The position numbers and the translations under genes are program-made. Positions 1-18,889 of a DNA stretch of 19,956 bases are shown here, one piece after another (positions within the stretch are counted from its first letter, which is position 1; every line of letters starts with the position of its first letter). Source of the DNA: a virus; IMG/VR virus record IMGVR_UViG_3300045988_162015, one strand, 5' to 3'. Below the pieces are notes generated by a model. That model worked only from the letters and a program-made list of their open reading frames with translations, had not been told where the DNA came from and made no database searches.

Positions 1-658
1 AATAAATTAAAGAAGCATTAGTATAATTAGTAGTAGTTGTACTTAATGCTTGAGCGGCCTTATTAGCTTTTTCAGCAAACTAAGCCATCTAATCATTACT
101 CTATCCAGTAACTATACGAATATCATTTAATGATCTATTTAAATCTTCTGCATAATAATAAGCTTTCTATAAAGAACCCTATACTCCATGCATTAAGTTA
201 GATGAAATTTGCCATTTGGCTGTATTAGCTAATGTCTTTTTAAAATTATCTAATATAGCATTAGTTCTTTTTAAAGGAACTTCAGCATTAATAACAGACT
301 ATGCTAATGCAACAAATGCTTTATCACCTGTTGGGCCTAGATTCTCTAAGTGTGTAGCAAAATCCTAAAGAGTATAACCACTCTAGCTTAAACTCTTTGA
401 AAATTTTGATAAATCTAAACGCCCAGTATTAACATTAGTCGCCTAATCTAAAGCAATTTTTAACTCCTAAACTGCTGCCGAGGCTTCATCTATTTCTTTT
501 TTAGTGGCATTAACATCAAAAAATTTAATATTTTTTGTTGCTATCTAATTCATTAAAGTATCTAATGAACTTTGTAAATCTCGTAATTGCTATTTAGCCT
601 GACCTGTATCAGCTGTAAATCGCATATTAACATTATAATTAGCACTGTTATTAGCCAT
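1..658 (-). CDS. Tail tape-measure-like protein, N-terminal part; the gene runs past the window start. It begins at ATG 656-658 and has 11 in-frame TAG codons in the 219 codons visible.
   Basis: Hand translation of the minus strand: MANNSANYNVNMRFTADTGQAK(Q)QLRDLQSS... stays open to position 1 if TAG is read through. SD AAAGGAGC lies 6-8 nt upstream. It is the last gene after the tail and chaperone genes, and a hairpin terminator sits upstream at 705-735. Confidence 0.5.
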
Positions 659-704
659 AAAATAGCTCCTTTCTCTCATTATAAATTTCTATATATATAA
701 AGAA

Positions 705-735
705 AAGGCGAGAGGAACAAAGCCTCTCGCCTTTT
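705..735 (-). terminator. Rho-independent-type hairpin usable on both strands (GGCGAGAGG-n7-CCTCTCGCC plus a T-run).
   Basis: aaggcgagaggaacaaagcctctcgccttttaat. Confidence 0.55.
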
Positions 736-772
736 AATATTCCTATTTAAATTAGAAATTAATTATAATATT

Positions 773-1300
773 TTAACCCATCTTGGTTAAAATATCTTTT
801 ACTAAAGATAGACTCTCAGGATTAGAAATCTTATCTTGCAGTTCATTAACATCTAAGTTCAAATTAGAATAATTCTGATTCATAGCATCCATAATTCCAT
901 AAACACTATTATGATATTTATAATATCCATTAAGCGTTTCATAAGTATAGACTTCTAAATCATCAGTTTGATTACAATCTACTTGCTTCTTCAATTCTTT
1001 TATAAACCCTGATCCAACAAGTAAATCATAAAGTTTATACAAATCTTCTTTTTGCTTATCAGTAAAAGATAAATTTGTATAATTAAATACTATTGCTAAA
1101 TCCATATACATATGGAAAGCAAATTCATTCAAAAATTCATTATTAAAATCAATGACTTGTTGAATGACCAACTAAGCAATATCCATTCTTTCCTTAATAG
1201 ACAAATACTGCTTTACTTCAATAGATTGCTCATTAAAACTCCATTCTTTTACCTAAGAGTTTTTTTGAAGTGTAAGCTTGGAAAATGCCAATTTTGCCAT
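773..1300 (-). CDS. Hypothetical protein of 175 aa; tail-assembly-chaperone candidate by position. Two in-frame TAGs, at 1253-1255 and 1172-1174.
   Basis: ATG at 1298-1300 with AGGAGG 7 nt upstream. Track ORF 773..1171 is only the C-terminal fragment after the second TAG. Stop is TAA at 773-775. Confidence 0.6.
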
Positions 1301-1378
1301 TACCTCGCCTCCTTCTTTATTATATTTTAAAAAAAATTACCTAGGTAAATTTTTTAATTTTCATTATCTTACAAATAT

Positions 1379-1407
1379 ATTATAACAAAAAAATTTTTTA
1401 AAGTCAA
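1379..1407 (-). promoter_or_regulatory. Consensus sigma70-type promoter on the minus strand (TTGACT-17-TATAAT) upstream of the chaperone-like gene.
   Basis: The reverse complement reads ttgactttaaaaaatttttttgttataat. Confidence 0.5.
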
Positions 1408-1414
1408 AAAAATT

Positions 1415-2734
1415 TTACTAATCCTCAAAAATTTTTTCAAAATTCATACTAATAGGACTATATAGAGCTTGTTCCATGGACATTCTTCTTTTATCATTTT
1501 CTAAAATACTCTTAGATCCCTATTTTTTATTAAAATATAAATTCATTTCTATATCTTTTGCCAATTTAGCTGTTGATAAAACTTTTAAGAATCCTTCTTT
1601 TTTAGGATTATTAATAACTAAAAATTTAGTACGACCAATATCATTAATAAAATTTGCCATTACATTCTAATAAGCATACTTAGTATCTCCAACTCTTTGT
1701 TTAGCCCCTGTTAATTCATAAATAGCTCTAATTCTAAAAAACATTTTAGGTACATCATTATGCTCGGCCATTTTAGAATGCCTTGCCATACAGTTTAACA
1801 TACGAGCATATCTATATAACTTATAACTTGTATCTCCATCAGCTACAGTTAAAAAAACACGATAAGGATTAGTATGACCTAAACCTATAAAACTATTTGA
1901 TAAATAGTTTTTATCACTAAAAGTAGCTAATGATAGAGCGTTAACTACTCGTTCTAACATTGTTGCAGTAGCTGTTATTGAAATATTATAATTTAATCCT
2001 GTATTATCAGCTTTTATCTATTTACTCTAAATAGCACCGACTTTACCATTTTCTTTAATTTGAGTATAAATAGTGACAGCTTTTAAATTATTTTTTTGAC
2101 GTTCTGTTGTAGTATTACCTGAATCTTTTTTTTCCTGCCCAATTTTATAAGCTAGCCTAGAGAAATAATTTATGGCAGTTTTTGTTGCACTATCTATGAC
2201 TCCATCACCAGCATTAATAATTAAATTTTTCATATTAATACTATCAACTAACTGACCAGAACGATGTGTTTGAGGTAAAGGACCATAGGGCATTTCCATA
2301 TTCTAAAAAGCATAGTCAATAGTAGTAATAAATTCATTCATAAAATTTTCTAATAAAGCACCACGTTCAGAACTATTAGCTCCTTTTTTCACCAATCCTC
2401 CATTAGTAAATAAATTAGGATTTACCATATATAACTAATTAAATAATTCGGCTAAAGCCTAATCCTAAACTATTTTTACTAAAGACTCGGTAGTGAAAGA
2501 CATTTTTTTACTATAATTATTTTGTATCTATTTAATTCCATTTAAAACTTCTTCTAATAATTTAGCGTCCTGAACTTCTTTATTAGTAATCATATCATTT
2601 GGTCGAGCTGCTGCTCTATATACTTCTAAAAGACTACTTAAATAAGTAGGAGTATTTACTTCATTTTTATAAGAAACTCCTTTTTGTTTATAATAAACTA
2701 ACTAATTTTTCTAGGCATTTGTTAATTTTGCCAT
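1415..2734 (-). CDS. Large tail structural protein, sheath or tube candidate, 439 aa. It carries 12 in-frame TAG codons.
   Basis: ATG at 2732-2734 with AAAGGAGAT SD. One frame joins track ORFs 2027..2299 and 1667..1960 through TAGs at 2711, 2702, 2510, 2465, 2459, 2435, 2303, 2027, 2018, 1667, 1520 and 1418. Stop is TAA at 1415-1417. Internal Mets have no SD. A hairpin terminator lies just upstream. Confidence 0.6.
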
Positions 2735-2766
2735 ATATTATATCTCCTTTTTCACATAATAAAAAA

Positions 2767-2798
2767 AAGGAGAGGGATTAACCCTCTCCTTTAATAAT
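2767..2798 (-). terminator. Hairpin terminator (GGAGAGGG-ATTAA-CCCTCTCC) followed on the minus strand by T8.
   Basis: Minus-strand reading: aaaggagagggttaatccctctccttttttttatt. Confidence 0.55.
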
Positions 2799-2942
2799 CT
2801 TATCAATAAGTTCATCCTCTGTAAGAGGAATTTTATTCTCTTTTTCTTGAGAATTTTTATTTTCTTTTTTTGATTTTTTAACTATAACTTTTTCTACTTC
2901 AGATGCTTTAACAGGTCGTGGAGCATTAGAGCTAATAATCAT
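2778..2942 (-). CDS. Small Lys/Glu-rich protein of 54 aa: MIISSNAPRPVKASEVEKVIVKKSKKENKNSQEKENKIPLTEDELIDKIIKGEG.
   Basis: Its ATG overlaps the upstream TAA (TAATTATGA). It has no SD of its own, so translational coupling is possible. Its TAA stop lies in the loop of the 2769-2790 hairpin. Confidence 0.35.
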   Translation of the reverse strand: MIISSNAPRPVKASEVEKVIVKKSKKENKNSQEKENKIPLTEDELIDKIIKGEG

Positions 2943-2944
2943 AA

Positions 2945-4036
2945 TTAAATATCAAAATAGCTGTCATGCATCGGATCATGGATAGTTTGAGTACGATAGA
3001 CACTATCATTATCAATATCTTCAATGACCTGAACAGCAGCCAATACTTTCTTAGTAGGATTGAAACGAGTAGTTCCTGGGAAAGCATCAAGTGTGAAAGT
3101 GAAAGTTGCAGGATCGCCAGTAGCAGCCATACTGAAAGTAAAGTTAGACTAAATCTTGCAGTTAGGAATTATAAATTCGGCAGGAAGATCAACACCATCC
3201 TGAGTACGGAATAAGGTAGAAGCTTCAAGATAGAAGTTGCCACCAAAAGATTCAGCGGTAATTTCAATTTGACGAGCATTGCTAGCCTTCTCAATATAAT
3301 AATCAAGAAGAACAACAGAATCTTTAAATGATTCTAATTTATGTACTGCATTAGCTTCAGCTTCATCAACAATCTTATAAGCAGAAGTAATTTCCTTAAT
3401 CTAAAGACCATAATAAATCTAAGTACCAGCTTTAGCCTTAGTATCAGCTTCTGCATCAGTACAAGTCTTATACTTCATTTCAGTTTCATCAAAATAGAAC
3501 TTTTGAGGTTTCGCAACTGCCCCCGCCTCAGTTTGACGAATAACTGTAGGAAGATAAGGCTCAGTTACTGGTTCATCATTGTCAACACGCATAGCATAAA
3601 TATAATATTCACCTTTATGAGCACCCGTGGTAGTATCAATTTGTTCATATGGTAAATTTTTAATAAAAATTTGTACACTATCCTTATCTTCAGAGAGAGC
3701 CACAGCAGTAGTCTTTTCAGTTACATGTTGCTTAATTGTATTCTGTTTAGAAGCATCAATAAGGCCAGCTCCAGCAAGAATCATGAAACCTTCTGCAGAA
3801 ATAAGAGCATCTTCCATAGTGAATGTTAAAGTACGGTCACCGTCCCAAGCTACTAAACGAGCATTGCCGCGTCCGCCTTGTGCATATACGGTCGTAGAAG
3901 CACCTTCAAGGCTAGAAGTCTTTAATGTATCGAAATAAAGAACTGGTTCGTTCGCATAGAAAACTTTATTACCAACCTTCATAGGAGCACGAGCTTTTAA
4001 TACGACATCGCATATCTCACGAACACCAAATTTCAT
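2945..4036 (-). CDS. Structural protein of 363 aa; tail sheath/tube or other major virion protein. Three in-frame TAGs.
   Basis: ATG at 4034-4036 follows AAGGAGG (ATTAAGGAGGAAATAACCTATG). The frame runs through TAG at 3419, 3401 and 3149 into track ORF 2945..3130. Stop is TAA at 2945. Confidence 0.65.
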
Positions 4037-4115
4037 AGGTTATTTCCTCCTTAATAAAATTTAAATTTTATTTATATAACTCGCTACAAAAATTAGTAAA
4101 GCGATTTATACAAAA

Positions 4116-4850
4116 TTAATGAATGTTTTTCATCCAATTGTCAGGTTTTTTATCTGACTTGGCTCCTGCTAATCTACTCTTTACATCAATATCCCAATTA
4201 GTATAAAGAGAAAATCTTTCTATTAAATCGTATAACTAATACAATGTTAAATTCATACAATCTTCTAATGACATTGAATCTAATCCAATAGTCAATGTAG
4301 AAACGTATTGGCTCAAAATGCTTGAATCGGTAACCCCTTTAAGTTCAGCGACCCTTTGACGCCCTTTCATTAATTTATTAGCTATTTCTTGAGCTTTTTT
4401 ATTAGCAGGATTATAATTATCTTGCCCATTTTTATTAGTATCAAAACAAAAAATTTGTCTTGCTACCTACTAAAATAATTCAAAGTTATCATTATCAATA
4501 TTAATCTAAATATCACTTTCATTATACTGAATAACAATAGACCTGGGAGTAAATGTAGACTTTGAATTTGGGAATAGTAATGATAGAACCTATTGCGCAG
4601 CTTTACGCCGTTCATTATTATCTTTCTATAGCATTACCATCATAAATATCTAAAAATTGGTAGTAGTATCCAAATCATTCTTGTCCTGATTTGTTATACT
4701 ATTTTTATTAATACAAAGACACTAAGCACCAGTAAAAAATTCTTTTTCGCCAATTAATGCTATTTCCTTTATCTTAGGCTAATGGAGAGTTAATGGAATT
4801 TCTGGAACAGGTAAATCTGTCCCGCACATTAAACTAAGTTTATAATCCAT
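4116..4850 (-). CDS. Hypothetical virion/neck protein of 244 aa with 9 in-frame TAGs.
   Basis: The frame was rebuilt from reverse-complement strings: MDYKLSLMCGTDLPVPEIPLTLH(Q)PKIKEIALIGEKEFF... ends at TAA 4116-4118. Its start overlaps the upstream stop (TAATG). Confidence 0.55.
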
Positions 4851-5440
4851 TAATTCATTTTAGGCATTTTAAAATAATCCTCGATAAACATTTGTTCATC
4901 AGCAGGATTTGGCATATATTTTTTATCTTCTCCTCCGTGTATTGTATCATATAATAAACAAAGTCCAGCAAATTCATCAGTTAATATAATTTGCTATGCT
5001 CCGACGAAATTAAGTTGCCCAATTCCAGTTAAATGTTTTTTATCTAACATACTATCAAGTTCGGCAGCGATTCTATAAGGTCTTAACTAAAATGAATCAG
5101 CTAATTGCCACTAATCATAATGACAAACAATATCAAATTCAATAGTATTATCCCTAAATTCAGGATTGTCTCCATTAGGAGCAAAGTTATCAAAACTAAT
5201 AACAATATAATTTAAAACATCTTTATCTATATATAATTTTGGTAAATTCCTTATATTTTTACCGAACATTTTTACGAAATTCTAATCACTTACTTCTGGC
5301 AGTCTTAATGCATCAGGAGTAGTATAATAAAGTAATTTACGTAAACGTTGATTCGCGGCCATACGATCAACTATAATTTTCATATCTTTTTCTTGGGCTA
5401 AAAATGCTGACTCTGGATTTTTTACATTATCAATTTTCAT
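4850..5440 (-). CDS. Hypothetical protein of 196 aa with 4 in-frame TAGs.
   Basis: ATG at 5438-5440 follows GAAGGAGAAAACGGAGA. Translation MKIDNVKNPESAFLAQEKDMKIIVDRMAANQRLRK... ends at TAA 4850-4852. Confidence 0.55.
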
Positions 5441-5461
5441 TCTCCGTTTTCTCCTTCATCT

Positions 5462-6457
5462 TTAAAATAAAGATTCAACTACAATGGTTTTACATTCTGG
5501 CCCATAGAATAAATCAAACTACCCACAGTAGGTAGTTTCCCATCGTAATTTTAAAGTATTTGTTTCTTCATTTACTTTAACTGTTAATGGTAATTTTTTA
5601 TCCCAAGTCCATTTACCAGAGTTAATTCCATCATATTTATATTCATATACTACTTTAGGTTTAATAAAAGTATCACCTATAATACCATTTTCTTTACCCT
5701 AATTAGGATCTTGAACCGGCTATATTAAACCGTTAACAATGCCATTATCAATATCATCAGCAGTTTCATTAGAATAATACTCGACAGCATTAATTTCAAT
5801 TATTCCAGGAGTAGAATACAAATCAGTAGCTTCAATACGCCAACATGTTTTATTAGGGTCATTCTATAAATAAAATTTATTATAACGCTAACATAATTTT
5901 ACATTATCATCATTATAAGGTAATAATATATTTAAAGAATGATTAGGTGTATCTATACTAATTTCATGCTTTTGGATGTAATTAATTTTAGTTTCAACAG
6001 GACCGCGCAAAGCTACATAAGTTTTATGATAATTTTTATTTTCATCTTCCCAAGCAATTTCATAAGAACAACGTCTTATATTGCCACGAAAATAAGCTAA
6101 TTCAGTTAAATCCTGTAAATAAATTAACCAATAAGTATTCGTACCTAACCACTAAAAAATATCCCCAGTTTTAAAATTACTTTCAAAACCAATTGAAATA
6201 ATTTTTTCATCATAATCCTATTTTGTTTTATCAGGGTTAATTAATGCACGACGTTCAATAGTATCTTTATCATCATATAATTTTTTTACCAAGGCAGCTT
6301 GATAAGAATAAAGTAAAGCTCTACTTAATGTTTTACGTTTATCTCTTATCATTCGTTCTTGCTGTCCTGTTACTCCATCACCATATAAATATCTTGTAAG
6401 CATATTGGCTTTTGGAATACGATTATACATTGCATCTAAATATTCATTTTTACTCAA
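5462..6457 (-). CDS. Hypothetical structural protein of 331 aa. TTG start and 7 in-frame TAGs.
   Basis: TTG at 6455-6457 follows AAGGGGG. The frame continues from track ORF 6218..6457 through TAG 6218, 6152, 5888, 5864, 5720, 5699 and 5519 to TAA 5462-5464, which sits directly before the next gene's SD. Confidence 0.5.
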
Positions 6458-6743
6458 TGTGAAGCCCCCTTAATAAAGTAATAGCTTCAAACACTGTTTT
6501 TCTATAAATAGGAAATTCAATTTCGATATTTTTTAATCCCTCTAATTTGCTTAAAAGAATTAAATACTAACTATCATTAAAAATTTCTCCAAGACCGGTT
6601 AATTCAATAATTACAGTATTTAACTAAGATATCCAATCTTCTTCATTTTCTCTCATAGGAATTAATTTCCATATCTAATTAGTGAGTCTATTAATATTAG
6701 TATTAATTAAATTATTGTCTATATCAAAATTATATTTAGTCAT
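6450..6743 (-). CDS. Hypothetical head-tail joining-type small protein of 97 aa with 3 in-frame TAGs.
   Basis: ATG at 6741-6743 overlaps the upstream stop (GATGACTAA). AGGGAGG lies 8 nt upstream. Stop TAA at 6450-6452 overlaps the TTG start of the next gene. Confidence 0.5.
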
Positions 6744-7347
6744 CAAGGGCGCTTACCTCCCTTAGAACAGACCAATTGGATTTAATATATCCATCATCAT
6801 CAGTTTTACGACGTTTATATAATCTCTACATATGAAATGCCTGACGTCTTACTTCTGTTCTCAATGATAACAATTTCTACATATGATTAGCCTATGAAGT
6901 AAATTTAAAATCTGTTCCAGAATATTTCATTCTTGTTACTTCGATAGATGCCAATTGACGTTCCACCCAAGCTTCAACCATGATTAAAGCTAAGATATTA
7001 ATTTCTTCATCATCTAAATCGGCATTAAAATAGGAGGTATTTTCCTCAGAAAATATCTCCTAAAAAGCATTATCTATATCAATATTACTACCAGCTACTT
7101 CTTCAGACAAATCTCCACCTAATGGTATATCAATATCTCCGCCATCAATCTCTCCTTTTATAAAATCAGGAGCATCTTCATCTATTAAAACGTAATCTAA
7201 TCGTTTACGCGGAAATTCAAATCCAGGAATACTATCAACAAGTAATTGGCGTAAATCTAAAAATGTATCACGAGGAGTAAGTTCTAAATACATATCATCT
7301 GTTACTTTGCCTAAAAAACGTTCATAAACTTTATAAAAATATGTCAT
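6736..7347 (-). CDS. Hypothetical protein of 203 aa, head-tail connector/adaptor candidate, with 4 in-frame TAGs.
   Basis: ATG at 7345-7347 follows AAGGAGGG. Track ORF 7060..7347 continues through TAG 7060, 6892, 6877 and 6826 to TAA 6736-6738. Confidence 0.55.
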
Positions 7348-7369
7348 ATAAAACCCTCCTTATTTATAA

Positions 7370-7936
7370 TTAACCTTCTTTTACAACATTATAACGAGGA
7401 GCAGTTCTACGACCAGGAGGCGTTGTGGGCTTAGTTTCAGTCTTCACTCTACGTTCAGGAGCTTTTGGAGTAATCTGTTCATCCTCCGCAGCTTCAGCTT
7501 CCTTATTAGCTAATGCTCTATCAAGGTCAAATCCAGTTTTATCTTTAAGAGCTTTACGCTTATTGTAATCACTCATAGGAAGAGATACAGCATAACTCTT
7601 AATCATATCAATAACTCCAATAGGAGCAAAATCAAGGCAGTCAAGGAATTCATCAAGAGTTCCTTCAGTAAGAAGCTTAATAACTCCAGCATCATCTAAA
7701 TAATATTCAGGTTCTGTATGAATACCTAATTCTTCTGTAGTTTCAGTATCCACAATCTTTAAGAAATTTTCCATTAAAGTGCGGCCTCCGCTAAGATAGG
7801 CAAGTTTCTCTAATTCCTCAAAAGGAATTTTCTTAGTTTCTCCAGGTGTAAATTCTCTGCGGATACCTTCTTCAGGAATAGTATAAACAACCATTCCAGC
7901 ACTTCTATTAGTAACTAATAAAATTTTTTTAACCAT
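7370..7936 (-). CDS. Hypothetical head-associated protein of 188 aa with no in-frame TAG.
   Basis: The likely true start is the ATG at 7934-7936 (MVKKILLVTNRSAG...), with AAAGGAGAAT upstream, rather than the track's 7993. Stop is TAA at 7370. A hairpin terminator lies upstream. Confidence 0.6.
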   Translation of the reverse strand: MVKKILLVTNRSAGMVVYTIPEEGIRREFTPGETKKIPFEELEKLAYLSGGRTLMENFLKIVDTETTEELGIHTEPEYYLDDAGVIKLLTEGTLDEFLDCLDFAPIGVIDMIKSYAVSLPMSDYNKRKALKDKTGFDLDRALANKEAEAAEDEQITPKAPERRVKTETKPTTPPGRRTAPRYNVVKEG

Positions 7937-7967
7937 TTTTTTTATTCTCCTTTTACTCATAAAACAA

Positions 7968-8003
7968 AATAGGGGAGAAGGGGATTTCCCCATTCTCCCC
8001 TAA
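7968..8003 (-). terminator. Hairpin terminator after the capsid gene (GGGGAGAA...TTCTCCCC with inner GGGGA/TCCCC) plus a U-rich tail.
   Basis: aggggagaaggggatttccccattctcccc. Confidence 0.55.
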
Positions 8004-8036
8004 AAATATTATATATTAATTTTTAGTTAATATCAA

Positions 8037-9173: not shown

Positions 9174-9190
9174 TTTTCTTCTCTCCTTTC

Positions 9191-9967
9191 TTACGCGATT
9201 CGCATAATCTTAACGCCCTTCTGATGATCAGGCATTTCATAAACCTTGACAACCTACCATTGGATAGAGCCATCACCAGATTTAGAAAGCATACCATCAG
9301 CAGCACGAGGACTTAAAACATCGCCAACTACAAGAGTAGCTTCGGCAATAGTATTAGTCGTAAAAATATCACCAACGTTGGTCTTGAAAACACGAGGAAC
9401 CATATTAGTGCCAGCAGGCATTCTACGGGCCTCATAAGGACCATCAAAATGTAAAGGATCTTCTTCATAGAAGAGTTCACGAATATCAGGACCAGCAGTG
9501 ACATCATCATACTCATAAGTATGTTGTACACCCTGACTATCTGTAATAGTCATAGAAGTATTACCTTCGGCATCCTTGCCGTTTAAATAGCGAGCCTGAC
9601 GTGTACCAATTTCCTGCTTGCCATCATAGGGGCTGTAATAACGAGCCTGATAATCATCTTTGCGCATAGCAAATTCGCAATCAGCTTGTTCCTCACGATA
9701 AAGTTTAATTTCATTATAAACTAACATCCATTCGCCCTTGCCAGTGAAATCAACTTCACCAAGCTCACCAGCAGCATAGTCATACTTAACAAACTGGCCA
9801 TTTTCAAGAAGCTGGATATTTCTGTTAGCAGGTAATTGAGCATAAATCTGACCAGTGCGTTGAGCACTTAAATGATTAGGCTCAACCTGACCATAGCCAT
9901 ATTCAACGTAGCCGCCCTTAACAGCAGATACGCCGCTTAGGTCTTTAAGCATATCTTTTAAAAGCAT
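9191..9967 (-). CDS. Hypothetical head protein. Track ORF 9254..9967 (237 aa) would gain a 20-aa extension if TAG 9254-9256 is read through, ending at TAA 9191-9193.
   Basis: ATG at 9967 follows AAGGAGG. After TAG the same frame reads QVVKVYEMPDHQKGVKIMRIA, then TAA. Confidence 0.5.
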
Positions 9968-9991
9968 TAGGTTTTCCTCCTTAAAAATTTA

Positions 9992-11557: not shown

Positions 11558-11569
11558 TATAAATCCTCC

Positions 11570-13258
11570 TTATTTACCAGCCGCTTGACGATTAGCGATT
11601 GTTTTTTCACTCTTTTCATCATTAGCTTTTTCTGGCCGACCGCTTTCTTTAGTTTCTGTTTTTACAGTAGTGGCATTTCCACTTGTTTTATTTTGAGAAG
11701 TGTTAGAACTATTCTAATCTTTTTTACCCAAAATATCTTCACCATTTAATGTAGAACTCATAAGAGGCGGTATCATAACTTCACTTAAATGTAGAACTTC
11801 ATTTTCAAAATGAGCTGTATTAAGAATAAAACTCTATGACTATCCAAGAGCAATCTAAGGTAACATTTTAGAGAAACCAATCTAAGTTTGCTCTTTATAC
11901 ATCTTAGATAAATCTTTATAATTATACTATGTAGTTTCTAACATATAGAATTTATAATTATATTTTTTCTAAACATTCAGGACTGATAATATTCTATCAA
12001 AAAATATGTTGAATTGCAAAATTAAATTACGCATGGTAGATTCATCATCTAAGATAGACTTTTCCAACGCAATATTGCCATCTGTATTAAATAAATTGCG
12101 CGAAACGCCAAATGCATTATATACGGTTCGTTCAACACGCTCTAATTCATCTGTGGTAGCAGAAGTATTTTTATCAGAAGTATCAATAGCATCTACATCT
12201 GCAAAAGTAGTTAATACATCAACACCTACAGCTCTACGCAACATTTCAACAGCATTATTATGAATATCACGAGCTTCATCAATATCAAAAATCAAATCAC
12301 CATTTTTATCAAGTGGTAATTTCTAAACTAAAATCTTTAATAATTTTTGCATCTACTTGCGGCGGTCTAAATCTTGTGCAGCATCTAAATCCAAAATTGC
12401 TGGAATAGCATTTACAAATAATGGAATATCATTAGTACCATTTAAAGCAAACTTAATAGTGCTTTGTGGATCTAATAAATACCAACTACCAGTATTATCA
12501 CCAGCTACATCAGGTAAAAGTTTACCAGCCTTATAGAGACGATAACCTATTGTAAATTCATCAGGAAATAATTTTAATACTCTATTACGGTAATTAGTAT
12601 CCACAAAAGTATCAAAGTATCTCATATCAAATTCAATAGCAGGTAAATTACCTACTGAATATCTTGAACGACAATACTCAATAGGAAGTTGCTATAAAAT
12701 TAAACCAGTACTTGAGGGAACAATATAGGCATAATAAGCTCCACATTTGATAACTTCAAGAGCCATATCGCCACAAATTTTCTTAATATAAGAATTATCT
12801 AAATAATTTAAAATTCGCCAGAAATCTTTTACTGCTTTTGTTTCATTAATATCTTTAACAGCAGAACCGTCAGTATTATTAGACTAAATAGCAATAGCCC
12901 AATCATAACGATACATATTCGCAAAATAATTACATACTCTTTGATAAATACCGCTTACTCTAAAAAAGAAACGTGATATTCTTCGCAATTCTTGAATATC
13001 ATTACGAATTAAAGCATCCATAACCATGGGCTTTGTATAAATACGTTCACGGCTATACTTTTCATTGCGGCGACCGTAAGTGTCCCATCTGAAAGATCCA
13101 AGATTTAAGACAGCATCGTCTAATGTCTTAACACCAACCTTAATCTTCTTATATTCATTTGGGCCAACTGCAGAATACTCACGTACTCCTCCAGTTATGT
13201 CAAAACCTTTTTTATGTATCTATTCATTTCTGGTTAATTCTTCCTTTTCTAATTCCAT
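11570..13258 (-). CDS. Portal protein candidate of 562 aa with about 11 in-frame TAGs.
   Basis: ATG at 13256-13258 follows AAGGTG. One frame joins track ORFs 12353..12625 and 11969..12295 through TAGs at 13220, 12692, 12353, 12323, 11969, 11927, 11882, 11855, 11840, 11834 and 11714. Stop TAA at 11570-11572 directly abuts the next gene's SD. Size and its position between terminase and scaffold fit a portal. Confidence 0.6.
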
Positions 13259-13275
13259 ACTTCACCTTCTTTCAA

Positions 13276-13632
13276 TTAATATCCAGCTTTTCGCATTATA
13301 TAATCATAAGAAATTAAATTTTCTTCTGTATAAGGAATTTCTATTAAATGTAAATCATGTAAAGCACAGAATCTACGTTTTTGATTATCATTATATTGCT
13401 ATTGATATAATCCACGTTTTCCACCAAATTTATTACTGGCTTCATAATGCTATTTCCCTTGATATTCAATTAAAAAATCAATATTATTATCATCATCAAA
13501 TATAACAAAATCAAAACGTAAAGGACGACCATTATGTGTTTTTAAATCTGGAAATATATATTCCATCTTAAAATTCAGGCCGGCTTCCTCTAAGATTTCT
13601 CTAATCTTAATTTCCGCACGACTGGCATCCAT
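13276..13632 (-). CDS. Small DUF559/Vsr-like (PD-(D/E)XK-type) endonuclease-fold protein of 118 aa with 2 in-frame TAGs.
   Basis: ATG at 13632 follows AAAGGAGA. Track ORF 13450..13632 continues through TAG 13450 and 13399 to TAA 13276. The motif ...FDFVIFDDDNNIDFLIEYQGKQHYE...QKRRFCALHDLHLIEIPY resembles the iEvDGxQH ... R...L...G..vlRf signature. Confidence 0.45.
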
Positions 13633-13720
13633 ATATTAAGTCTCCTTTCTTATCTACAAATAAATTCCTCTTATTATTCTTTTAAAAATTAATTTAAAAG
13701 AATAATAAGAGTTGCCCGGC

Positions 13721-15472
13721 TTAATTCATAAACATCCAATCAGCAGCCCGGAATTTTTTCTTCTTTTTATCTTCTTCTATTTTTTTTATATAATATAATC
13801 CATACTCTAATGCAGAGAATTTATCTTTTTTAATACTTTTATTAGCTTGTTTTAAAATTATATTTAAACCTTCATTTTCTTCACGTAGATTCATAATCTC
13901 TTCGCGTAATGAAGTAGTTAAACTGAATGGTCTTAAATAATCAGATCGCGCTTCTGTGGTCATATTCTAGCCCACTTTAGTAGTTAATAATTTCTATTTA
14001 GCAGTTCGTTCATCAATTAAAAATTTAATCTTACCAGAATTTAATACTGACTAAGTAATACTATGTGCTTCAGTATTAATTGGTGCATTAGCTTTCATTA
14101 AGTATAAAACATCTAATTCTGTACTATTGGTTTTATATTTTTTATATTCTTGAACTGCATCATCCTAAGTTCCACCATAAACACCAAAATCAGGAATTAC
14201 TTCAGAAGTTTCAGGATTAATCTGTGGTTTAACCATAAAATCAACTAAACCAACACCAAGTCCATTAGCATCTATTACAATTCTACGAGCTTTATATTTA
14301 TAATATAATTTTTTAAGTTTAATAGCCTAATCTTCAAAATGGGTATCATTCATAGTATAAATATTAACTAAACTTTTAATCGGTTCACCATGCGGTTGCG
14401 GCGTTACTTTAAATACACAAACAACAGTATCGCATCCTTTACGGCCTACGTCAACACTTAATATATAATAAGATAATTTACTTGAACGACCAGAAGCTTC
14501 ATACTCAGGCTAATTCAGTATTCTATTTCTATTAAATATTTCTGCATTAAAGAAAGCGTCTTCAACTGTACCAGACCAAATTGATTCATATTCACGTTCG
14601 AAAGAAGCTTCATTATAAGTTCCTTCATTTTTTTGGTCAGTAATAAATGTTTTCTGCTGTAATCCAACAGCAACAGGAGTTCGCCAAGTTCCGCCTAATA
14701 CCATACATCTATCAGGCTATGTAATCATACGAACTAATAAACCAATTAATCTATCATAAGGATAAGTATTTTTATAGCCAGCAGTAGTAATATAAATCTA
14801 TGATTTATTTACCGCTTCTTCTTCATGAGTTGTACCATCCTTAGCTCTACGAGGAATAGCCATAACTGGTATAATGACTTCGCGCAAAATCTAATCATCA
14901 ATACCTACACATTCTTCCATTAGACCGCCATGACGACGCTGACCACGAGTACTTTCTCTCGCAGCTAAATTATCAAGGACAGAGCCATTCTTAAATACAT
15001 AACGTACTTTATCTTTACTCTCTTGGCTCTTACCTCGACCCCAATCAATTTCACGTTTAAAGCTCGGTATTAAGTCACAAATTTCATTAACTTTGTCATG
15101 TAGAATACTTGCACCTTGTTCCTTACCTCCAGAAGTAACAAATAAATGAACACCAGGATAAAGAATACATCTAACCATTAATGCCATAACTGATAAAAAT
15201 GATTTAGAATAGGCACGAGGGAAAACTGCATAAACATATTGATAGCGCATTACACATCTTAAAAAAACACGCTAATAGAAGAAAAATTTAAATTCTCCTT
15301 CTTTCTATTCTGTACGTGTTCCTCGCACTAAAAAATCAACAAATAAATCTGGATATTCGCGCCAAAAGGCAGTATATTTACGAATGACTGGCATTACGGC
15401 ATTAATACGTTCTTCAGAAAGACCTATTTTTTTTCGGCTTGTAGATAGGTCAAGTAAATCTTGTAACGCCAT
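13721..15472 (-). CDS. terL: Terminase large subunit of 583 aa with 11 in-frame TAGs.
   Basis: ATG at 15470-15472 overlaps the upstream stop (TAATG). It joins track ORFs 14891..15250, 14510..14704 and 13721..13963. A Walker-A-like AVFPRAYSKS is present, plus an RNaseH-like nuclease region (VDVGRKGCDTVVCV...ARRIVIDANGLGVGLVDF) and FEREYESIW. Stop is TAA at 13721. Confidence 0.75.
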
Positions 15473-16686
15473 TAATCTTCTCTATCAGAGAAAGCATCTA
15501 TATCTAACTCTGTCTCATTATCTAAAAATTCACTAAAGTCTTCAATATCTTTATCTTCTAAAGTTTTTTCAATGTCTTCAATAGACATATCAACATCATC
15601 AACAATTGTGTCTTCGACGTTTTCTTTAGCCTATTCATCTTCTTTAGCGTTTTGTTTTAATGCCTAATCAATCATATTGCCAAGATTAGTTTCTCGTTCA
15701 ATTAAAGTACGAGTATATTTCTACATATCTTTAATTGTAAAATCTACTTTATCATTTGGAGTATCAATATAATATCTTTCGATATAGCCTTGTTTCTCAC
15801 ACATTTCTATTAATTCACCAACAGAATCAATGAAATCGCCAGATTCTTCTTTATTCTAGGCAGCAGTAAATTTGCCCGATTTCATTAAAGAATCATACAT
15901 TTTAATCATCTTTTGGGCGCCGTCTACATCACCTATATCTAATAACTAATTAGATTTTAATGATGTCTTACAGGCAAGTTTTAATGTGTCAATATGGCCT
16001 GCAGACTAAATATCGTAAGACTGCATCATTTCATTAAATAACTGCTCTAAGCGCACCCATTCATCAGGGCTATAGCCTTTTCCCCATTTTAAATAAAGAT
16101 ATCGTTTATCTTCGTCTGTCAGCTCTGCACCTAAGTCAGGAACATCAAAATCTAATTTATCTTTAAAATAATCTTCTGCAGAATTCCCAAAATCTAGGGG
16201 AGGAGGTGCAGGAGGAGGTGGCTCTTTTAATTCTTCTGATGGCAAAGCAAATGAAGCACGTTGAATGGCTGTAGTAATATCTTGAACATCATATCCCTAT
16301 TGCTTCATTGTTTCTTCTATTTTTTTATTTTGTAAGTCTTGCAAGAATTGACTATCTTTCCATCTATAATCTTTCCATTGATTTAATTTCATTGCAGAGA
16401 GATAGCGACCTAATATTGTCATTCCAGTGACTTTCGCTCTATCCTTCGCAAATTTACCCATTAACTAATTCCACTAATCAGGAATGTAAGGAACATCACA
16501 TTCTTGCAATATCCATAGATAAGTATCCGGATTCCAATTATCTACATGCATTGTTATACATTTTTTACATTTTGGTAATTTACCATCGTTAGGATATTTA
16601 TCTAAATTATTAGATGTATAAAACTAAGTTCCATCCATAGTTTTATTACATTTTTCACAGTAATATTGTTTACCTTCGCTGGACAA
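15472..16686 (-). CDS. Zinc-ribbon DNA-binding protein of 404 aa with an acidic C-terminus; terminase small subunit candidate by position. About 10 in-frame TAGs.
   Basis: TTG at 16684-16686 sits 8 nt after AAAGGAGA, just past an in-frame TGA. The protein contains CEKCNKT...DGKLPKCKKC and track ORF 16006..16245. It ends at TAA 15472-15474, overlapping the terL ATG. Confidence 0.45.
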
Positions 16687-16704
16687 TCAATATTTCTCCT
16701 TTCT

Positions 16705-17769
16705 TTAGGATTTCATTTTTTCTTTACGAGAACTATTTCGGCATTTTTTACATATACTATAAAATCCATCTTTACTTGTTTTGTTATAGGAAAAATATTT
16801 ATTGTGAGCTAATTTAATTTGCCCACATCGACTGCATTTTTTATATTTGCCTTTTTCTTGAGTTGTATAATACCACTCTAAATATTTATCAACAGCTTTA
16901 TCGGCAATAAGTTTTGGTATTTTATTGCGGAATAAACTTGATATATATTCTAAACTGTGGGTAATATTAAATTCTTCTTGTAAAATTTTTTGAATCTCTA
17001 TATTTTGTAATCCATCAATTTTACATTCTACAATACGCATTAACATAGGATAATCAGCCAAAGCTTCATCACAAATATTTTCAAAATCATAGATAAGATA
17101 CCAAGTATCATCTTCAAAACGGTCCCAACTATCTTCTTTTAACCGAGAATAATTGCATAAGATGCAAGAGCAAATTTCAGGGTTCATCAATGAGACGCCT
17201 TCTGGAATTGGATATCCATCATCATCAAATATTTTTACATCTTCATCTAATTTAATTTTATATTTGGACCGTGTAAGCTTTACTGGTACTATTGGCTTCC
17301 GATAAGCATTTTTAATAACATATTGGTCTTTACGCATTTCTATTAATGCTTTTTTTATAGTGAAAGCATCTTTACCACTCACTACTTTCATTTTTGCTTC
17401 CCAAGTTGTAATAGCGTCTTTTAATTGTTTTAAGCTCGGAATTTCTTCTAAATCTTTTTTTGTAATTGTAACTTTTGGCTAAAATATCATATTTTTATCA
17501 CTATTAATTAAATTATATATACCATCTTCACCATTCTCTAACTGGGAAACAAGTCCTTCGAAAGAAGTTTCACGTTTATTAACTGTCATTAATCTATTAT
17601 CAGTTAATATTTTCTTTTCTTTTTTTTCTTGTTTCTCCATACATAGAATTAGATAATCTGCAAGAATTTCTAAATACTTTTCATTAGGATTTGGATTTTC
17701 TTCTAAGATTTTTTTTACTAATTCATTTCTTTCTTCAGGAGTTTCAAGAGTATAATCTAATTTTATCAA
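16705..17769 (-). CDS. Zinc-ribbon protein. Track ORFs 17479..17826 and 16705..17391 are in the same frame and separated only by TAG 17479-17481, so they are probably one ~355-aa product; two separate genes remains possible.
   Basis: Likely TTG start at 17767-17769 with GGAGG 8 nt upstream. The C-terminal motif CSRCGQIK...DGFYSICKKC is paralogous to the motif in the downstream gene. Stop is TAA at 16705. Confidence 0.45.
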
Positions 17770-17797
17770 GATTAATACCTCCAATCCTTCTAAAAAA

Positions 17798-17826
17798 ATT
17801 ATAACACAAAAAATTTGTAAAGTCAA
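17798..17826 (-). promoter_or_regulatory. Consensus promoter on the minus strand (TTGACT-17-TGnTATAAT) heading the packaging/structural gene array.
   Basis: The reverse complement reads ttgactttacaaattttttgtgttataat. Confidence 0.55.
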
Positions 17827-17880
17827 CCATGGCCAAAAATTTTTATGACATTTGGTAAAAAAATTATATAAAATGTAAAA

Positions 17881-18858: not shown

Positions 18859-18889
18859 AATGGATATCGAGTAATTAAGGAATAAAATT

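What the first reader, a model, noticed from the sequence alone, without database searches (positions are those of the whole stretch)
1..17830. TAG is a sense codon across the whole packaging, head and tail module
Every minus-strand fragment in the ORF track that ends in TAG continues in the same frame, often for hundreds of codons, until a TAA. Fragments in one frame merge into proteins of normal size and gene order: terL 583 aa, portal 562 aa, a 439-aa tail protein. Real starts have AAGGAGG-type SDs, whereas Mets just after a TAG have none. Every real stop I could verify is TAA. TGA turned up only once in frame, between genes, and looks like an ordinary stop. This fits a code-15-like reassignment, presumably TAG=Gln, as in some gut phages. 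A standard-code gene caller would shatter this region into about 45 small ORFs.
Basis: partly seen in the sequence, partly recalled or inferred. Interest (0 to 1): 0.85.

Follow-up and report, generated by a model that had tools for sequence, protein, structure and literature searches.

The report
Phage late genes read TAG as glutamine
The head, packaging and tail genes of this gut phage, a relative of Bacillus phage SPbeta, use the stop codon TAG as a glutamine codon; this trick is already known in gut phages, so the finding is correct but not new, although I could not find the tRNA that reads TAG in this lineage.

Summary
The observation and its interpretation both hold. On the minus strand of 1-17826 lie 19 co-oriented late genes with 96 in-frame TAG, no in-frame TAA or TGA, and TAA at all 18 complete gene ends. 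Reading TAG as sense raises coverage by ORFs of at least 100 aa from 36% to 90%. It restores a 583-aa terminase, a 562-aa portal, a tail tube protein and other SPbeta-type structural proteins, and homology runs across the TAGs. In six cultured standard-code relatives, Gln is by far the best fit at TAG positions. Among strains 95-97% identical to the window, TAG swaps mainly with CAG and CAA and never with TAA or TGA. The neighbouring divergent module has one TAG in about 2,020 sense codons and uses TGA as a stop. This matches the published picture of late-gene TAG-to-Gln recoding (Borges 2021; phAss-1, Babkin 2023), and most public gene calls for this phage already read through TAG. It is a new member of a known kind. 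One point is open: in about 110 kb of this roughly 188-kb genome, including its 14-gene tRNA array, I found no canonical CUA tRNA, although a sister lineage has one. Two odd lineage-specific RNAs are leads only.

The parts
1..679 (-). 5' part of the tape measure gene (226 codons here; about 3,040-3,150 aa in public contigs); 12 in-frame TAG
   Evidence: Matches phrog_34405, tail length tape measure. Carries PF10145 PhageMin_Tail in the public calls. TAG count. My first-ATG start at 679 has no Shine-Dalgarno sequence, and the public calls appear to start about 16 nt downstream, so the start is uncertain.
773..1300 (-). 175-aa gene upstream of the tape measure gene; function unknown; 2 TAG
   Evidence: Starts with AAGGAGG plus ATG and ends in TAA. 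28% identical to the Enterococcus phage H1 gene at the same position.
1415..2734 (-). 439-aa ORF; function unknown ('tail protein' by position only); 12 TAG
   Evidence: No PHROG or Pfam match. Called as 439 aa in public contigs.
2778..2942 (-). 54-aa small gene; no TAG; TAA stop
   Evidence: Called in most of the public contigs shown.
2945..4036 (-). Tail tube protein (YomU type), 363 aa; 3 TAG
   Evidence: Carries PF27173 YomU_Tube in the public calls. Matches phrog_2729 over residues 1-325. 39% identical to Enterococcus phage H1.
4116..4850 (-). YomV-like tail protein, 244 aa; 9 TAG
   Evidence: Carries PF27211 YomV_2nd. Column 205 is Gln in 4 of 4 standard-code relatives.
4850..5440 (-). 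YomW-like protein, 196 aa; 4 TAG
   Evidence: Carries PF27256 YomW. TAG count.
5462..6457 (-). 331-aa structural-module protein; 7 TAG
   Evidence: Matches phrog_31155. 27% identical to Enterococcus phage H1.
6450..6746 (-). 98-aa protein; all 3 of its Gln codons are TAG
   Evidence: Homologues in Enterococcus phage H1 and Alicyclobacillus phage KKP_3916.
6736..7347 (-). 203-aa head/tail-module protein; 4 TAG
7370..7993 (-). 207-aa protein next to the capsid gene; no TAG
   Evidence: 30% identical to Enterococcus phage H1.
8037..9173 (-). Major capsid protein (YonB type), 378 aa; none of its 11 Gln codons is TAG
   Evidence: Carries PF27364 YonB. Matches phrog_4088. Codon counts. The identical protein is listed in 627 blocks of the public collection.
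9191..9967 (-). 258-aa head-module protein; 1 TAG among 15 Gln codons
9992..11557 (-). YonD-like protein, 521 aa; 3 TAG. Public calls start it at about 11194 (400 aa) and miss 121 N-terminal residues that hold 2 TAG.
   Evidence: AAGGAGG lies before the GTG at 11557. The PHROG match starts at residue 8 and tblastn matches start at residues 1-17. Carries PF27290 YonD_N.
11570..13258 (-). Portal protein, 562 aa; 12 TAG
   Evidence: Matches phrog_2739 over residues 83-559, E 5e-76. Columns 189 and 312 are mostly Gln in relatives. Six of its TAG sites vary to CAG or CAA among strains.
13276..13632 (-). 118-aa protein between terL and portal; 2 TAG, both aligned to Gln in Enterococcus phage H1
   Evidence: 51% identical to the Enterococcus phage H1 homologue. 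Weak DUF2726 match.
13721..15472 (-). Terminase large subunit (YonF type), 583 aa; 11 TAG
   Evidence: tblastn gives 44-47% identity over 93-95% of its length to Geobacillus virus E3 and Enterococcus phages H1 and VRE9_4. Matches phrog_2. Columns 67 and 382 are Gln in 6 of 6 relatives.
15472..16686 (-). YonG-like protein, 404 aa; 10 TAG; its stop overlaps the terL start
   Evidence: Carries PF27269 YonG_N. Matches phrog_3314..
16705..17826 (-). First gene of the module; matches a PHROG annotated as sigma factor and has a C-terminal zinc-ribbon/HNH-like tail; 1 TAG. The start is uncertain: public calls give 311 aa, starting near 17637.
   Evidence: Matches phrog_5767 over residues 50-365, E 2.5e-52. 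41% identical to Enterococcus phage H1..
17939..19956 (+). Start of the divergent module, which is compatible with the standard code. Genes: 17939-18094, 18130-18567, 18658-18885 and 19582 onward, running off the window. It contrasts with the recoded module and is not part of it.
   Evidence: With its continuation in L018, which is identical to the window over 11,827 bases, it has 21 genes with 1 in-frame TAG among about 2,020 sense codons, and stops of 14 TAA and 7 TGA. Late versus early TAG density: Fisher p = 7e-12.

Best explanation
Window 1-17826 (minus strand) is the late operon of a large phage of the human gut, about 188 kb, with a very long tape measure gene. Its head and tail proteins belong to the Bacillus phage SPbeta type. 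The operon runs from a sigma-like gene through YonG-like, terminase, portal, YonD-like, capsid, head-tail connector and tail tube genes to the tape measure gene.

In this operon TAG is a sense codon for glutamine. It supplies 40% of all Gln codons. TAA is the only stop used here, and TGA remains a stop in the neighbouring module. These points are shown.

The following are inferred. The divergently transcribed neighbouring genes avoid TAG. They can therefore be translated by an unmodified host ribosome early in infection. The late genes yield full-length protein only once TAG decoding is switched on, which ties virion production to that switch. This is the model of Borges et al. for recoded phages. 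The decoder is expected to be a phage-supplied amber suppressor charged with Gln, possibly helped by weakened release factor 1 (RF1) activity. I did not find it in this lineage, so that step is not shown.

TAG is avoided in the most highly expressed gene: none of the capsid gene's 11 Gln codons is TAG. That would fit suppression being less efficient than ordinary decoding.
For: - ORF structure and stop-codon asymmetry.
- Homology running across the TAGs.
- Gln is the best fit at TAG columns in six cultured standard-code relatives. TAG columns are Gln in 22% of aligned residues, similar to the 18% seen at ordinary CAA/CAG columns of the same alignments.
- TAG is exchanged with CAG or CAA in 182 of 254 variant cells among strains 95-97% identical, and never with TAA or TGA.
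- With TAG counted, Gln content is 4.2% of codons; without it, 2.5%.
- Ribosome-binding sites sit at true starts and not after TAGs.
- Late versus early contrast: 96 TAG in 5,696 codons against 1 in about 2,020, p = 7e-12.
- SPbeta-type Pfam families (YonB, YonD, YonG, YomU, YomV, YomW) and read-through gene sizes in the public calls for contigs carrying the identical capsid protein.
- A sister lineage, 73-75% identical in a neighbouring protein, and phAss-1 both carry CUA tRNAs.
- Published precedent: Borges et al. 2021 (10.1101/2021.08.26.457843), Babkin et al. 2023 (PMC10607447) and Peters et al. 2022 (PMC9523058, abstract seen).
Against: - There is no protein-level evidence.
- There is no tRNA in the window.
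- I found no canonical CUA tRNA in about 110 kb of this lineage's genome, including its complete tRNA array.
- The full 188,474-bp IMG/VR contig of the lineage has no match to the motif shared by the known CUA tRNAs of relatives.
- About 93 kb of the genome was never examined.
- The host and its genetic code are unknown.
- Twelve of the 32 variable TAG sites change to non-Gln codons (TCG, GAA, GAT and others), mostly in the variable N-terminal part of the tape measure gene.
Confidence: 0.92

Rival explanations
1. TAG is decoded without a canonical CUA suppressor tRNA. The decoder would be one of the lineage-specific odd RNAs of the phage's tRNA array. One candidate is a 71-nt tRNA with a shortened anticodon arm whose loop can present UUA. 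The other is a 72-nt RNA, flanked directly by tRNAs, with a UUCUAGA loop. A third possibility is near-cognate host tRNA-Gln reading TAG once RF1 is disabled. This rival concerns the mechanism only, not the coding claim.
For: - No canonical CUA tRNA in 110 kb, including the 14-gene array.
- The sister lineage, which has a canonical 90-nt CUA tRNA at the same place in its array, lacks both odd RNAs.
- The 71-nt tRNA is in every complete array seen. Its stems change by A:U to G.U to G:C and by G:C to G.U to A:U, so it is under structural constraint.
- The 72-nt RNA shows one compensatory U:A to G:C change at the loop-closing pair, and 98% of cells are paired.
- The literature notes that many recoded phages have no detectable suppressor tRNA.
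Against: - About 93 kb of the genome is unseen and may hold an ordinary CUA tRNA.
- A UUA anticodon would also read TAA, which is the only stop codon of these genes.
- The anticodon arm of the 71-nt tRNA is 2 nt short, giving either a 5-nt loop or a 4-bp stem.
- The 72-nt RNA folds no better than shuffled sequence, z about 0. It is absent from the array of IMG/VR contig 3300045988_152007, whose genes also carry in-frame TAG. It encodes no CCA end.
- Covariation rests on very few events.
Confidence: 0.2
2. TAG encodes an amino acid other than Gln: pyrrolysine or Lys, Ser, Tyr, Trp, Leu or Glu.
For: - ARAGORN labels every CUA tRNA of the relatives 'tRNA-Pyl' by default.
- The sister-lineage CUA tRNA is 90 nt long with a long variable arm and, by my reading of its sequence, a G at the discriminator position 73. 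This shape is typical of Ser, Leu and Tyr tRNAs rather than Gln tRNAs.
- Lys and Glu are the next most frequent residues at TAG columns.
- Two sites exchange TAG with TCG.
Against: - Log-likelihood at 250 aligned residues: Gln -683, Lys -755, Glu -756, Ser -769, Leu -905, Tyr -938, Trp -976.
- Invariant Gln columns in terL, portal and the YomV-like protein.
- 72% of within-population changes at TAG go to CAG or CAA. TAG to CAA needs two base changes.
- No TAG exchange with AAG was seen.
Confidence: 0.05
3. The region is a decaying prophage or an assembly artefact, the TAGs are disabling nonsense mutations, and the fragments are what is really there.
For: In the standard code the genes are broken into 53 pieces of at least 30 aa. 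Many public protein records are such fragments.
Against: - All 96 in-frame stops are TAG, with no TAA, TGA or frameshift. The probability is about 1e-73 under the off-frame stop mix.
- TAGs are kept at the same sites in ten independent assemblies from different samples: 760 TAG-TAG cells.
- The identical capsid protein is listed in 627 blocks of public assemblies, on contigs of 185-188 kb.
- Coverage of up to 1,270x is written in contig names.
Confidence: 0.01
4. The host itself reads TAG as sense, and the phage simply matches its host, so no code switch takes place during infection.
For: The host is unknown. Phage contigs are binned with 'Mollicutes' and 'Clostridium sp.' MAGs. No phage suppressor was found.
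Against: - The adjacent module has one TAG in about 2,020 sense codons against 1.7% of codons in the late module. A phage fully adapted to a TAG-sense host should use TAG throughout. Borges et al. report about 90% of genes recoded in phages that match the code of their host.
- I know of no bacterial lineage with TAG = Gln (my own knowledge).
- MAG binning of a phage-sized contig is not evidence of a host.
Confidence: 0.03

Closest known systems
phAss-1 and the proposed genus Phassvirus (Babkin et al. 2023, PMC10607447; filed by NCBI under 'Caudoviricetes code 15 clade')
   Same: Human-gut phage with TAG = Gln in terminase, portal, tape measure and other late genes. It has a tape measure protein of about 3,100 aa and a terL of the same family (42% identity over 91% of the query). 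The paper places it in the wider group that includes Enterococcus phage EF1.
   Different: - Only 42% terL identity, and no nucleotide match.
- Genome about 188 kb against 136 kb.
- phAss-1 has CUA tRNAs, three according to the paper. The two I saw lie next to the nrdD gene (anaerobic ribonucleotide reductase). Neither type is found in this lineage.
- TAG positions in terL never coincide between the two phages.
Stop-codon-recoded gut phage clades of Borges et al. [quoted passage not shown]
   Same: TAG to Gln (code 15), concentrated in structural and lysis genes. The genome is low in GC, and TAG is rare or absent as a stop. Early genes are compatible with the standard code. Suppressor tRNAs were detected in only about 40% of TAG-recoded genomes.
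   Different: I could not assign this phage to one of the named clades. Their terminase tree and genomes are not in the tools.
crAss-like phages using code 15 (metaproteomic proof in Peters et al. 2022, PMC9523058)
   Same: The same reassignment and the same bias towards late genes.
   Different: Unrelated virion module. crAss-like phages are podovirus-like and infect Bacteroidota (both from my own knowledge). Here the module is SPbeta-type with a very long tape measure gene. There is no protein-level evidence for this phage.
Standard-code SPbeta-like phages of Bacillota (Enterococcus phages H1, VRE9_4 and EF1, Geobacillus virus E3, Brevibacillus phage Sundance, Bacillus phages PBC2 and Skywalker)
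   Same: The same gene order from the YonG-like gene to the tape measure gene. Identity to the nearest of them is 44-47% in terL, 40% in the capsid protein and 39% in the tail tube protein.
   Different: They use the standard code. Their genes are annotated as continuous ORFs, and the codons facing the window's TAGs are ordinary sense codons, most often Gln.

Membership tests
Phage with genetic code 15 (TAG = Gln) in late genes | Many in-frame TAG codons in conserved, otherwise intact genes; no other in-frame stops | tested here: met
   96 TAG, 0 TAA and 0 TGA in 5,696 codons of 18 genes.
Phage with genetic code 15 (TAG = Gln) in late genes | TAG positions align with Gln in standard-code homologues | tested here: met
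   Gln at 56 of 250 aligned residues against a 3.5% background. It is the best amino acid by 72 log-likelihood units.
Phage with genetic code 15 (TAG = Gln) in late genes | TAA and TGA still act as stops | tested here: met
   18 of 18 late genes end in TAA. TGA ends 7 of 21 genes in the adjacent module.
Phage with genetic code 15 (TAG = Gln) in late genes | Recoding concentrated in structural or late genes; early genes compatible with the standard code | tested here: met
   1.7% of codons against 0.05%, Fisher p = 7e-12.
Phage with genetic code 15 (TAG = Gln) in late genes | Phage-encoded suppressor tRNA with a CUA anticodon (frequent but not universal: about 40% of such genomes in Borges et al.) | tested here: inconclusive
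   None found in the window or in about 110 kb of the lineage's genome, including the tRNA array. About 93 kb was not examined. The sister lineage and phAss-1 have one.
Phage with genetic code 15 (TAG = Gln) in late genes | Gln found at TAG positions in the proteins themselves | not testable with these tools
   Needs metaproteomics or expression experiments.
SPbeta-type virion module (YonB capsid and associated proteins) | Pfam families YonG_N, YonD_N, YonB, YomW, YomV_2nd and YomU_Tube, in that order, followed by a very long tape measure gene | tested here: met
   Precomputed Pfam hits on the public gene calls of ten contigs carrying the identical capsid protein. The gene order matches cultured relatives. 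The local Pfam copy returned none of these newer families for the five proteins concerned that I scanned; the capsid, YomU-, YomV- and YomW-type proteins were not scanned.
Proposed genus Phassvirus (phAss-1) | High nucleotide identity (80-86% among members) and shared gene order, including CUA tRNAs | tested here: not met
   No megablast match to any phage record. terL is only 42% identical. The phAss-1-type CUA tRNA motif is absent from the lineage's 188-kb contig. This phage is a distant relative, not a member.
Pyrrolysine decoding of TAG | A pylT tRNA with pylS and pylBCD genes; TAG at a few specific sites | tested here: not met
   96 TAGs are spread evenly along the genes. They behave as Gln. 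No CUA tRNA lies nearby. The pyl genes themselves were not searched for.

The most novel reading that the evidence does not exclude
This lineage of TAG-recoded phages has replaced the ordinary CUA suppressor tRNA, still present in its sister lineage at the same spot in the tRNA array, with a non-canonical decoder. The decoder would be either a tRNA with a 15-nt anticodon arm presenting UUA, or a 72-nt RNA with no T-arm, released by the processing of the tRNAs on either side, that carries CUA in an anticodon-like loop. If so, the 'missing suppressor' problem of the majority of recoded phages lacking a detectable suppressor tRNA would have a concrete, testable answer.
Probability: 0.15. Interest if true: 0.75.

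Novelty: new member of a known kind. Interest (0 to 1): 0.3.

Why it matters
For annotation, reading these genes with the standard code gives 53 meaningless fragments in place of 19 genes. Such fragments are already in public resources. Two PHROG families of 'unknown function' match only the N-terminal or only the C-terminal part of this terminase. A search with the tape measure N-terminus returned only records of about 125-385 aa, far shorter than the protein of over 3,000 aa.

For biology, this window adds a very widespread human-gut lineage to the set of late-gene TAG-to-Gln recoders. Its exact capsid protein is listed in 627 blocks of the public assemblies, on contigs from Peruvian, Hadza and other gut-metagenome samples. 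Its virion module is of the SPbeta type.

The within-population data show TAG and CAG/CAA exchanging freely at the same sites, so the recoded state is dynamic rather than frozen. The only part that could become important is the unidentified decoder.

Tried and rejected
1. TGA as a sense codon (code 4): no gain in ORF coverage. Rejected.
2. A nucleotide search of the window against 50,697 phage records found nothing.
3. The hunt for a CUA tRNA started with ARAGORN on the window. I then walked about 50 kb rightwards using all eight IMG/VR scans, and then used ENA contigs. This reached the tRNA array but found no canonical CUA tRNA.
4. Jumps using sister-lineage proteins next to their CUA tRNA (a 120-aa ORF and an AAA ATPase) did not retrieve this lineage.
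5. Using phAss-1 NrdD to find an nrdD-linked suppressor: none of the 120 listed hits lay on a contig of the size of this lineage's genomes.
6. Using the tape measure N-terminus to jump past that gene returned only short records.
8. A 145-nt tRNA in the array, interrupted by an insert, looked like a possible hidden suppressor. An uninterrupted copy in another contig shows it is tRNA-Ile(UAU). Rejected.
9. A class-II-shaped tRNA(CCA) sits where the sister lineage has its CUA tRNA. Its anticodon reads UGG, so it was rejected as the TAG decoder.
10. Host identification through GTDB genomes gave only phage-sized contigs binned into MAGs.
11. The local Pfam scan of ten window proteins gave nothing above threshold.

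Full report
**1. What is in the window**

The window is 31.7% G+C. In the standard code it looks almost non-coding. ORFs of at least 100 aa cover 40% of it, and 36% of 1-17830 on the minus strand. With TAG read as sense, coverage rises to 91% (90% for the minus strand of 1-17830). With TGA read as sense, nothing changes.

The TAG-sense ORFs form one tight, co-oriented operon of 19 genes on the minus strand from 17826 down to 1. Most starts are preceded by AAGGAGG-type sites or overlap the preceding stop.

The 18 long genes contain 96 in-frame TAG in 5,696 codons and no in-frame TAA or TGA. The other two frames of the same genes hold 612 TAA, 509 TGA and 235 TAG. Every complete gene ends in TAA. 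If the in-frame stops were random damage with the off-frame mix, all 96 being TAG would have a probability of about 1e-73.

Ribosome-binding sites sit at 11 of 18 true starts but at only 1 of 89 first start codons after a TAG. Calling the 439-aa ORF a tail protein rests on its position only.

**2. What the genes are**

- PHROG profiles identify the terminase large subunit (13721-15472), the portal (11570-13258, aligned over residues 83-559, so across most of its 12 TAGs), a virion structural protein (2945-4036) and the tape measure protein (1-679). The other genes match families of unknown function along their full merged length.
- The capsid protein (8037-9173) contains no TAG and could be looked up exactly. 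It is listed in 627 blocks of the public assemblies. Many contigs are 185-188 kb long, and some reach 214 and 251 kb.
- The public gene calls on those contigs carry Pfam families named after the virion proteins of Bacillus phage SPbeta. In order they are YonG_N, YonD_N, YonB (capsid), YomW, YomV_2nd and YomU_Tube, followed by a PhageMin_Tail tape measure protein of 3,039-3,146 aa.
- tblastn of the merged terminase finds cultured phages of Bacillota: Geobacillus virus E3 at 47%, Enterococcus phages H1, VRE9_4 and EF1 at about 45%, Alicyclobacillus phage KKP_3916 at 44%, Brevibacillus phage Sundance at 36% and Bacillus phages at about 32%. It also finds the metagenomic phage phAss-1 at 42%. The gene order is the same in all of them.

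**3. Which amino acid TAG encodes**

I put X at the TAG positions and aligned all the window's proteins by tblastn to the structural regions of six cultured standard-code relatives.

- Of 250 residues facing a TAG, 56 are Gln (22%), against 3.5% Gln in the rest of the aligned residues. Lys (28) and Glu (26), the usual substitutes for Gln, come next.
- Terminase columns 67 and 382 are Gln in 6 of 6 relatives, and column 225 in 5 of 6. Portal column 189 is Gln in 4 of 5. YomV-like column 205 is Gln in 4 of 4.
- With substitution frequencies taken from the same alignments, Gln has log-likelihood -683. Lys has -755, Glu -756, Ser -769, Leu -905, Tyr -938 and Trp -976.
- The 22% conservation matches the 18% seen at the window's ordinary CAA and CAG codons.

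A second, independent test used ten other assemblies of the same phage, 94.7-97% identical to the window. TAG is conserved in 760 cells. It is exchanged with CAG in 124 cells, with CAA in 58 and with all other codons together in 72. It is never exchanged with TAA or TGA. By site, 20 of the 32 variable sites involve Gln codons. The rest lie mostly in the variable start of the tape measure gene.

With TAG counted, Gln makes up 4.2% of codons; without it, 2.5%. TAG is 40% of all Gln codons in the operon. TAG positions in the phAss-1 terminase never coincide with those here. TAG and CAG therefore turn over continually.

**4. Where the recoding stops**

Beyond 17826 the genes switch to the + strand. 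The contig ERZ5839929 Peru_scaffold_1 is identical to the window over the 11,827 bases they share, and it extends this module by about 8.6 kb. Its 21 called genes have one in-frame TAG among about 2,020 sense codons. Their stops are 14 TAA and 7 TGA, with no TAG stop. The contrast with the late operon is significant (Fisher p = 7e-12).

Inside the operon, use of TAG is uneven. The capsid gene has 0 of 11 Gln codons as TAG, its two neighbours 0 of 1 and 1 of 15, and the first, sigma-like gene 1 of 11. Tail, portal and terminase genes have 40-100%.

**5. How it most likely works**

What is shown is the code itself: TAG is Gln, TAA is the stop in the late operon, and the neighbouring module can be read in the standard code. 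The rest is inference from published work.

Borges et al. describe just this layout in many gut phage clades. They propose that early genes are read with the host's code and that late genes become translatable only after the phage installs TAG decoding, so recoding times the making of virion and lysis proteins. phAss-1, the nearest described recoded relative, has the same recoded genes and carries CUA tRNAs. I adopt that model with the decoder unidentified.

**6. The search for the decoder**

The window has no tRNA. Using all eight IMG/VR scans (six of them walking steps) and five of twelve contig look-ups, I followed the genome for about 50 kb to the right of the window. The route passes small early genes, an RNA ligase-like gene, a SAM synthetase-like gene (both named from my reading of the translations, not from a family search) and a radical-SAM gene cluster. 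It ends at a tRNA array followed by tail-fibre genes carrying the Mtd_N domain.

On ENA contig MUNK22-1 scaffold_7, which also carries the window's exact capsid protein, ARAGORN and Rfam together find 14 tRNA genes and none with a CUA anticodon. My own scan for hairpins presenting CUA, UUA or UCA found no canonical suppressor tRNA; its only CUA hits were the 72-nt element below and one isolated hairpin in L192.

A pattern made from the anticodon arm and T arm shared by the CUA tRNAs of phAss-1 matched 41 IMG/VR stretches, several of them on contigs of the sister lineage. It matched none of the contigs of this lineage, including the 188,474-bp contig 3300045988_152007.

The sister lineage is 73-75% identical in a neighbouring protein. 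It has a 90-nt CUA tRNA with a long variable arm as the second-to-last tRNA before the tail-fibre genes.

The negative result is therefore incomplete.

**7. Two lineage-specific RNAs in the array (leads only)**

The first is a 71-nt tRNA (L203 7258-7328) that Rfam scores at 48-52 bits and ARAGORN misses.

- Its anticodon arm is two bases short. It forms either a 5-bp stem with the loop UUUAA or a 4-bp stem with the loop AUUUAAU, which would present UUA.
- Its stems change among strains by A:U to G.U to G:C and by G:C to G.U to A:U, so the RNA is under structural constraint.
- It is present in every complete array of this lineage and has no homologue in the sister lineage.
- A UUA anticodon would read UAG by wobble, but it would also read UAA, the stop codon of every late gene. 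That counts against it unless RF2 wins at UAA.

The second is a 72-nt element that begins right after one tRNA and ends right before the next, in varying tRNA contexts.

- It has a 5-bp hairpin with the loop UUCUAGA, which puts CUA where an anticodon would sit.
- Variants from a metagenome scan show one compensatory change (U:A to G:C) at the loop-closing pair and wobble-compatible changes elsewhere. 98% of cells are paired, and 4 of 500 shuffles reach the observed covariation score.
- Against it, the fold is no more stable than shuffled sequence. It has no T arm and encodes no CCA end. It is missing from the array of contig 3300045988_152007, whose genes also carry in-frame TAG.

I give about 15% to either RNA being the decoder.

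**8. Rival explanations**

- Gene decay is excluded by the exclusive use of TAG, by conservation of the same TAG sites in ten assemblies and by the abundance of the phage.
- Another amino acid is excluded by the likelihoods and by the exchanges of TAG with CAG and CAA. The long-arm shape of the sister lineage's CUA tRNA would suit Ser, Leu or Tyr better than Gln. That is worth noting, but the alignments do not support those residues.
- A host that itself reads TAG as sense is unlikely, because the neighbouring module avoids TAG.
- The host remains unknown. The only GTDB hits are phage-sized contigs binned into 'Mollicutes', 'Clostridium sp.' and 'Muribaculaceae' MAGs.

**9. Novelty and verdict**

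The phenomenon, its late-gene bias and its occurrence in this broad group of phages are all published. Most public gene calls for this phage already read through TAG (583-aa terminase, 561-564-aa portal).

I found no paper describing this particular lineage of about 188 kb, and no similar record among 50,697 deposited phage genomes. It is a new member of a known kind. The unidentified decoder is the only route to something new.

Noticed in passing
window 13721-15472: Besides the terminase family phrog_2, the merged terminase matches two PHROG families of 'unknown function'. phrog_15503 (profile length 245) covers only residues 11-228, and phrog_24618 (profile length 230) covers only residues 354-573. 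These look like families built from terminase fragments of recoded phages called in the standard code.
   Followed up: no
window 9992-11557: Public gene calls, although most read through TAG, start the YonD-like gene at about 11194 (400 aa). An AAGGAGG site before the GTG at 11557, and homology starting at residues 1-17, support a 521-aa protein. The missed N-terminus holds two TAGs.
   Followed up: partly
window 18658-18885 (+): This is the only TAG in the standard-code-compatible module. A small gene whose public product carries a faint MraZ Pfam hit has TAG at codon 67 of 75. The TAG is conserved in the window and 13 other strains. The eight codons after it vary mostly synonymously (GGA/GGG, TAT/TAC, AAG/AAA). 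The tail therefore seems to be translated, possibly giving a short early form and a longer late form.
   Followed up: partly
window 8037-9173 and 7370-7993: The capsid gene and its downstream neighbour contain no TAG at all (0 of 11 and 0 of 1 Gln codons), whereas portal, terminase and tail genes use TAG for 40-100% of their Gln codons. TAG seems to be avoided in the most highly expressed gene.
   Followed up: partly
L203 4419-4563; also L187 15198-15342 and L188 15191-15336; uninterrupted copy at L192 3663-3737: A tRNA-Ile(UAU) gene carries an insert of about 73 nt in its anticodon loop. The insert is itself shaped like a tRNA, with a 7-bp terminal stem and D-like and T-like arms. The same insert sits in two different tRNA bodies and is also present in the sister lineage. 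It is far too short for a group I intron.
   Followed up: partly
L203 7258-7328 (also in L187-L189, L192-L196, L198, L201 and L204-L212): A 71-nt tRNA that ARAGORN misses. Its anticodon arm is 2 nt short, with the loop UUUAA or AUUUAAU (possibly a UUA anticodon), and its T loop is unusual (UGCRAUU). Compensatory changes occur in two stems. It is specific to the lineage that lacks a canonical CUA tRNA.
   Followed up: partly
L203 about 7005-7077; also L188 17755-17826 and L218-L232: A 72-nt conserved element lies directly between two tRNA genes, in varying tRNA contexts. It has a hairpin with the loop UUCUAGA. One compensatory pair was seen, and the fold is not significantly stable. It is absent from IMG/VR contig 3300045988_152007.
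   Followed up: partly
L203 8110-8197 (last tRNA before the tail-fibre genes): An 86-88-nt tRNA with a long variable arm and anticodon CCA (Trp). By my reading of the sequence it has a G1.U72 pair and a G at position 73. It scores 38.8 bits on the Rfam tRNA-Sec model, below that model's threshold. One sister-lineage contig (L109 7726-7805) has a tRNA with a UCA anticodon near the same place. I did not compare the two sequences.
   Followed up: no
L115 3369-3458, L132 1688-1777 (sister lineage); L099 25598-25688 (phAss-1): The CUA tRNA of the sister lineage and one of those in phAss-1 are about 90 nt long, with a long variable arm. For the sister-lineage copy I read a U1.U72 mismatch and a G at position 73. 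This is not the shape of a normal tRNA-Gln, yet TAG behaves as Gln. How such a tRNA would be charged with Gln is unclear.
   Followed up: no
(protein database): A search with the tape measure N-terminus returned 87 records of about 125-385 aa and none of the proteins of over 3,000 aa. Many public records of this gene may therefore be fragments cut at TAG.
   Followed up: no
L020 18668-19318 and 19617-20138; L189 12872-13795 and 15105-15719: Genes that look like homing endonucleases, judged by their sequence motifs, lie at the end of the early region and inside the tRNA array. They are among the most TAG-rich genes seen, with 9-10 TAG in 173-307 codons. GIY-YIG Pfam hits were recorded on other array genes.
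   Followed up: no
L188 12109-14074; L203 1334-3296: A radical-SAM enzyme gene is followed by a gene for a Cys-rich repeat peptide (Pfam tSAM_targ_Cxxx_rpt). The pair lies just upstream of the tRNA array, and both genes contain TAG. It may be a phage-borne pair for a ribosomally made, post-translationally modified peptide.
   Followed up: no
L213-L217 (GTDB genomes): Contigs of this phage and its relatives, up to 175 kb long, are binned into MAGs labelled 'uncultured Mollicutes', 'Clostridium sp.' and 'Muribaculaceae'. The binning probably reflects composition or coverage, so these MAGs are contaminated with phage genomes. It is not evidence of a host.
   Followed up: no
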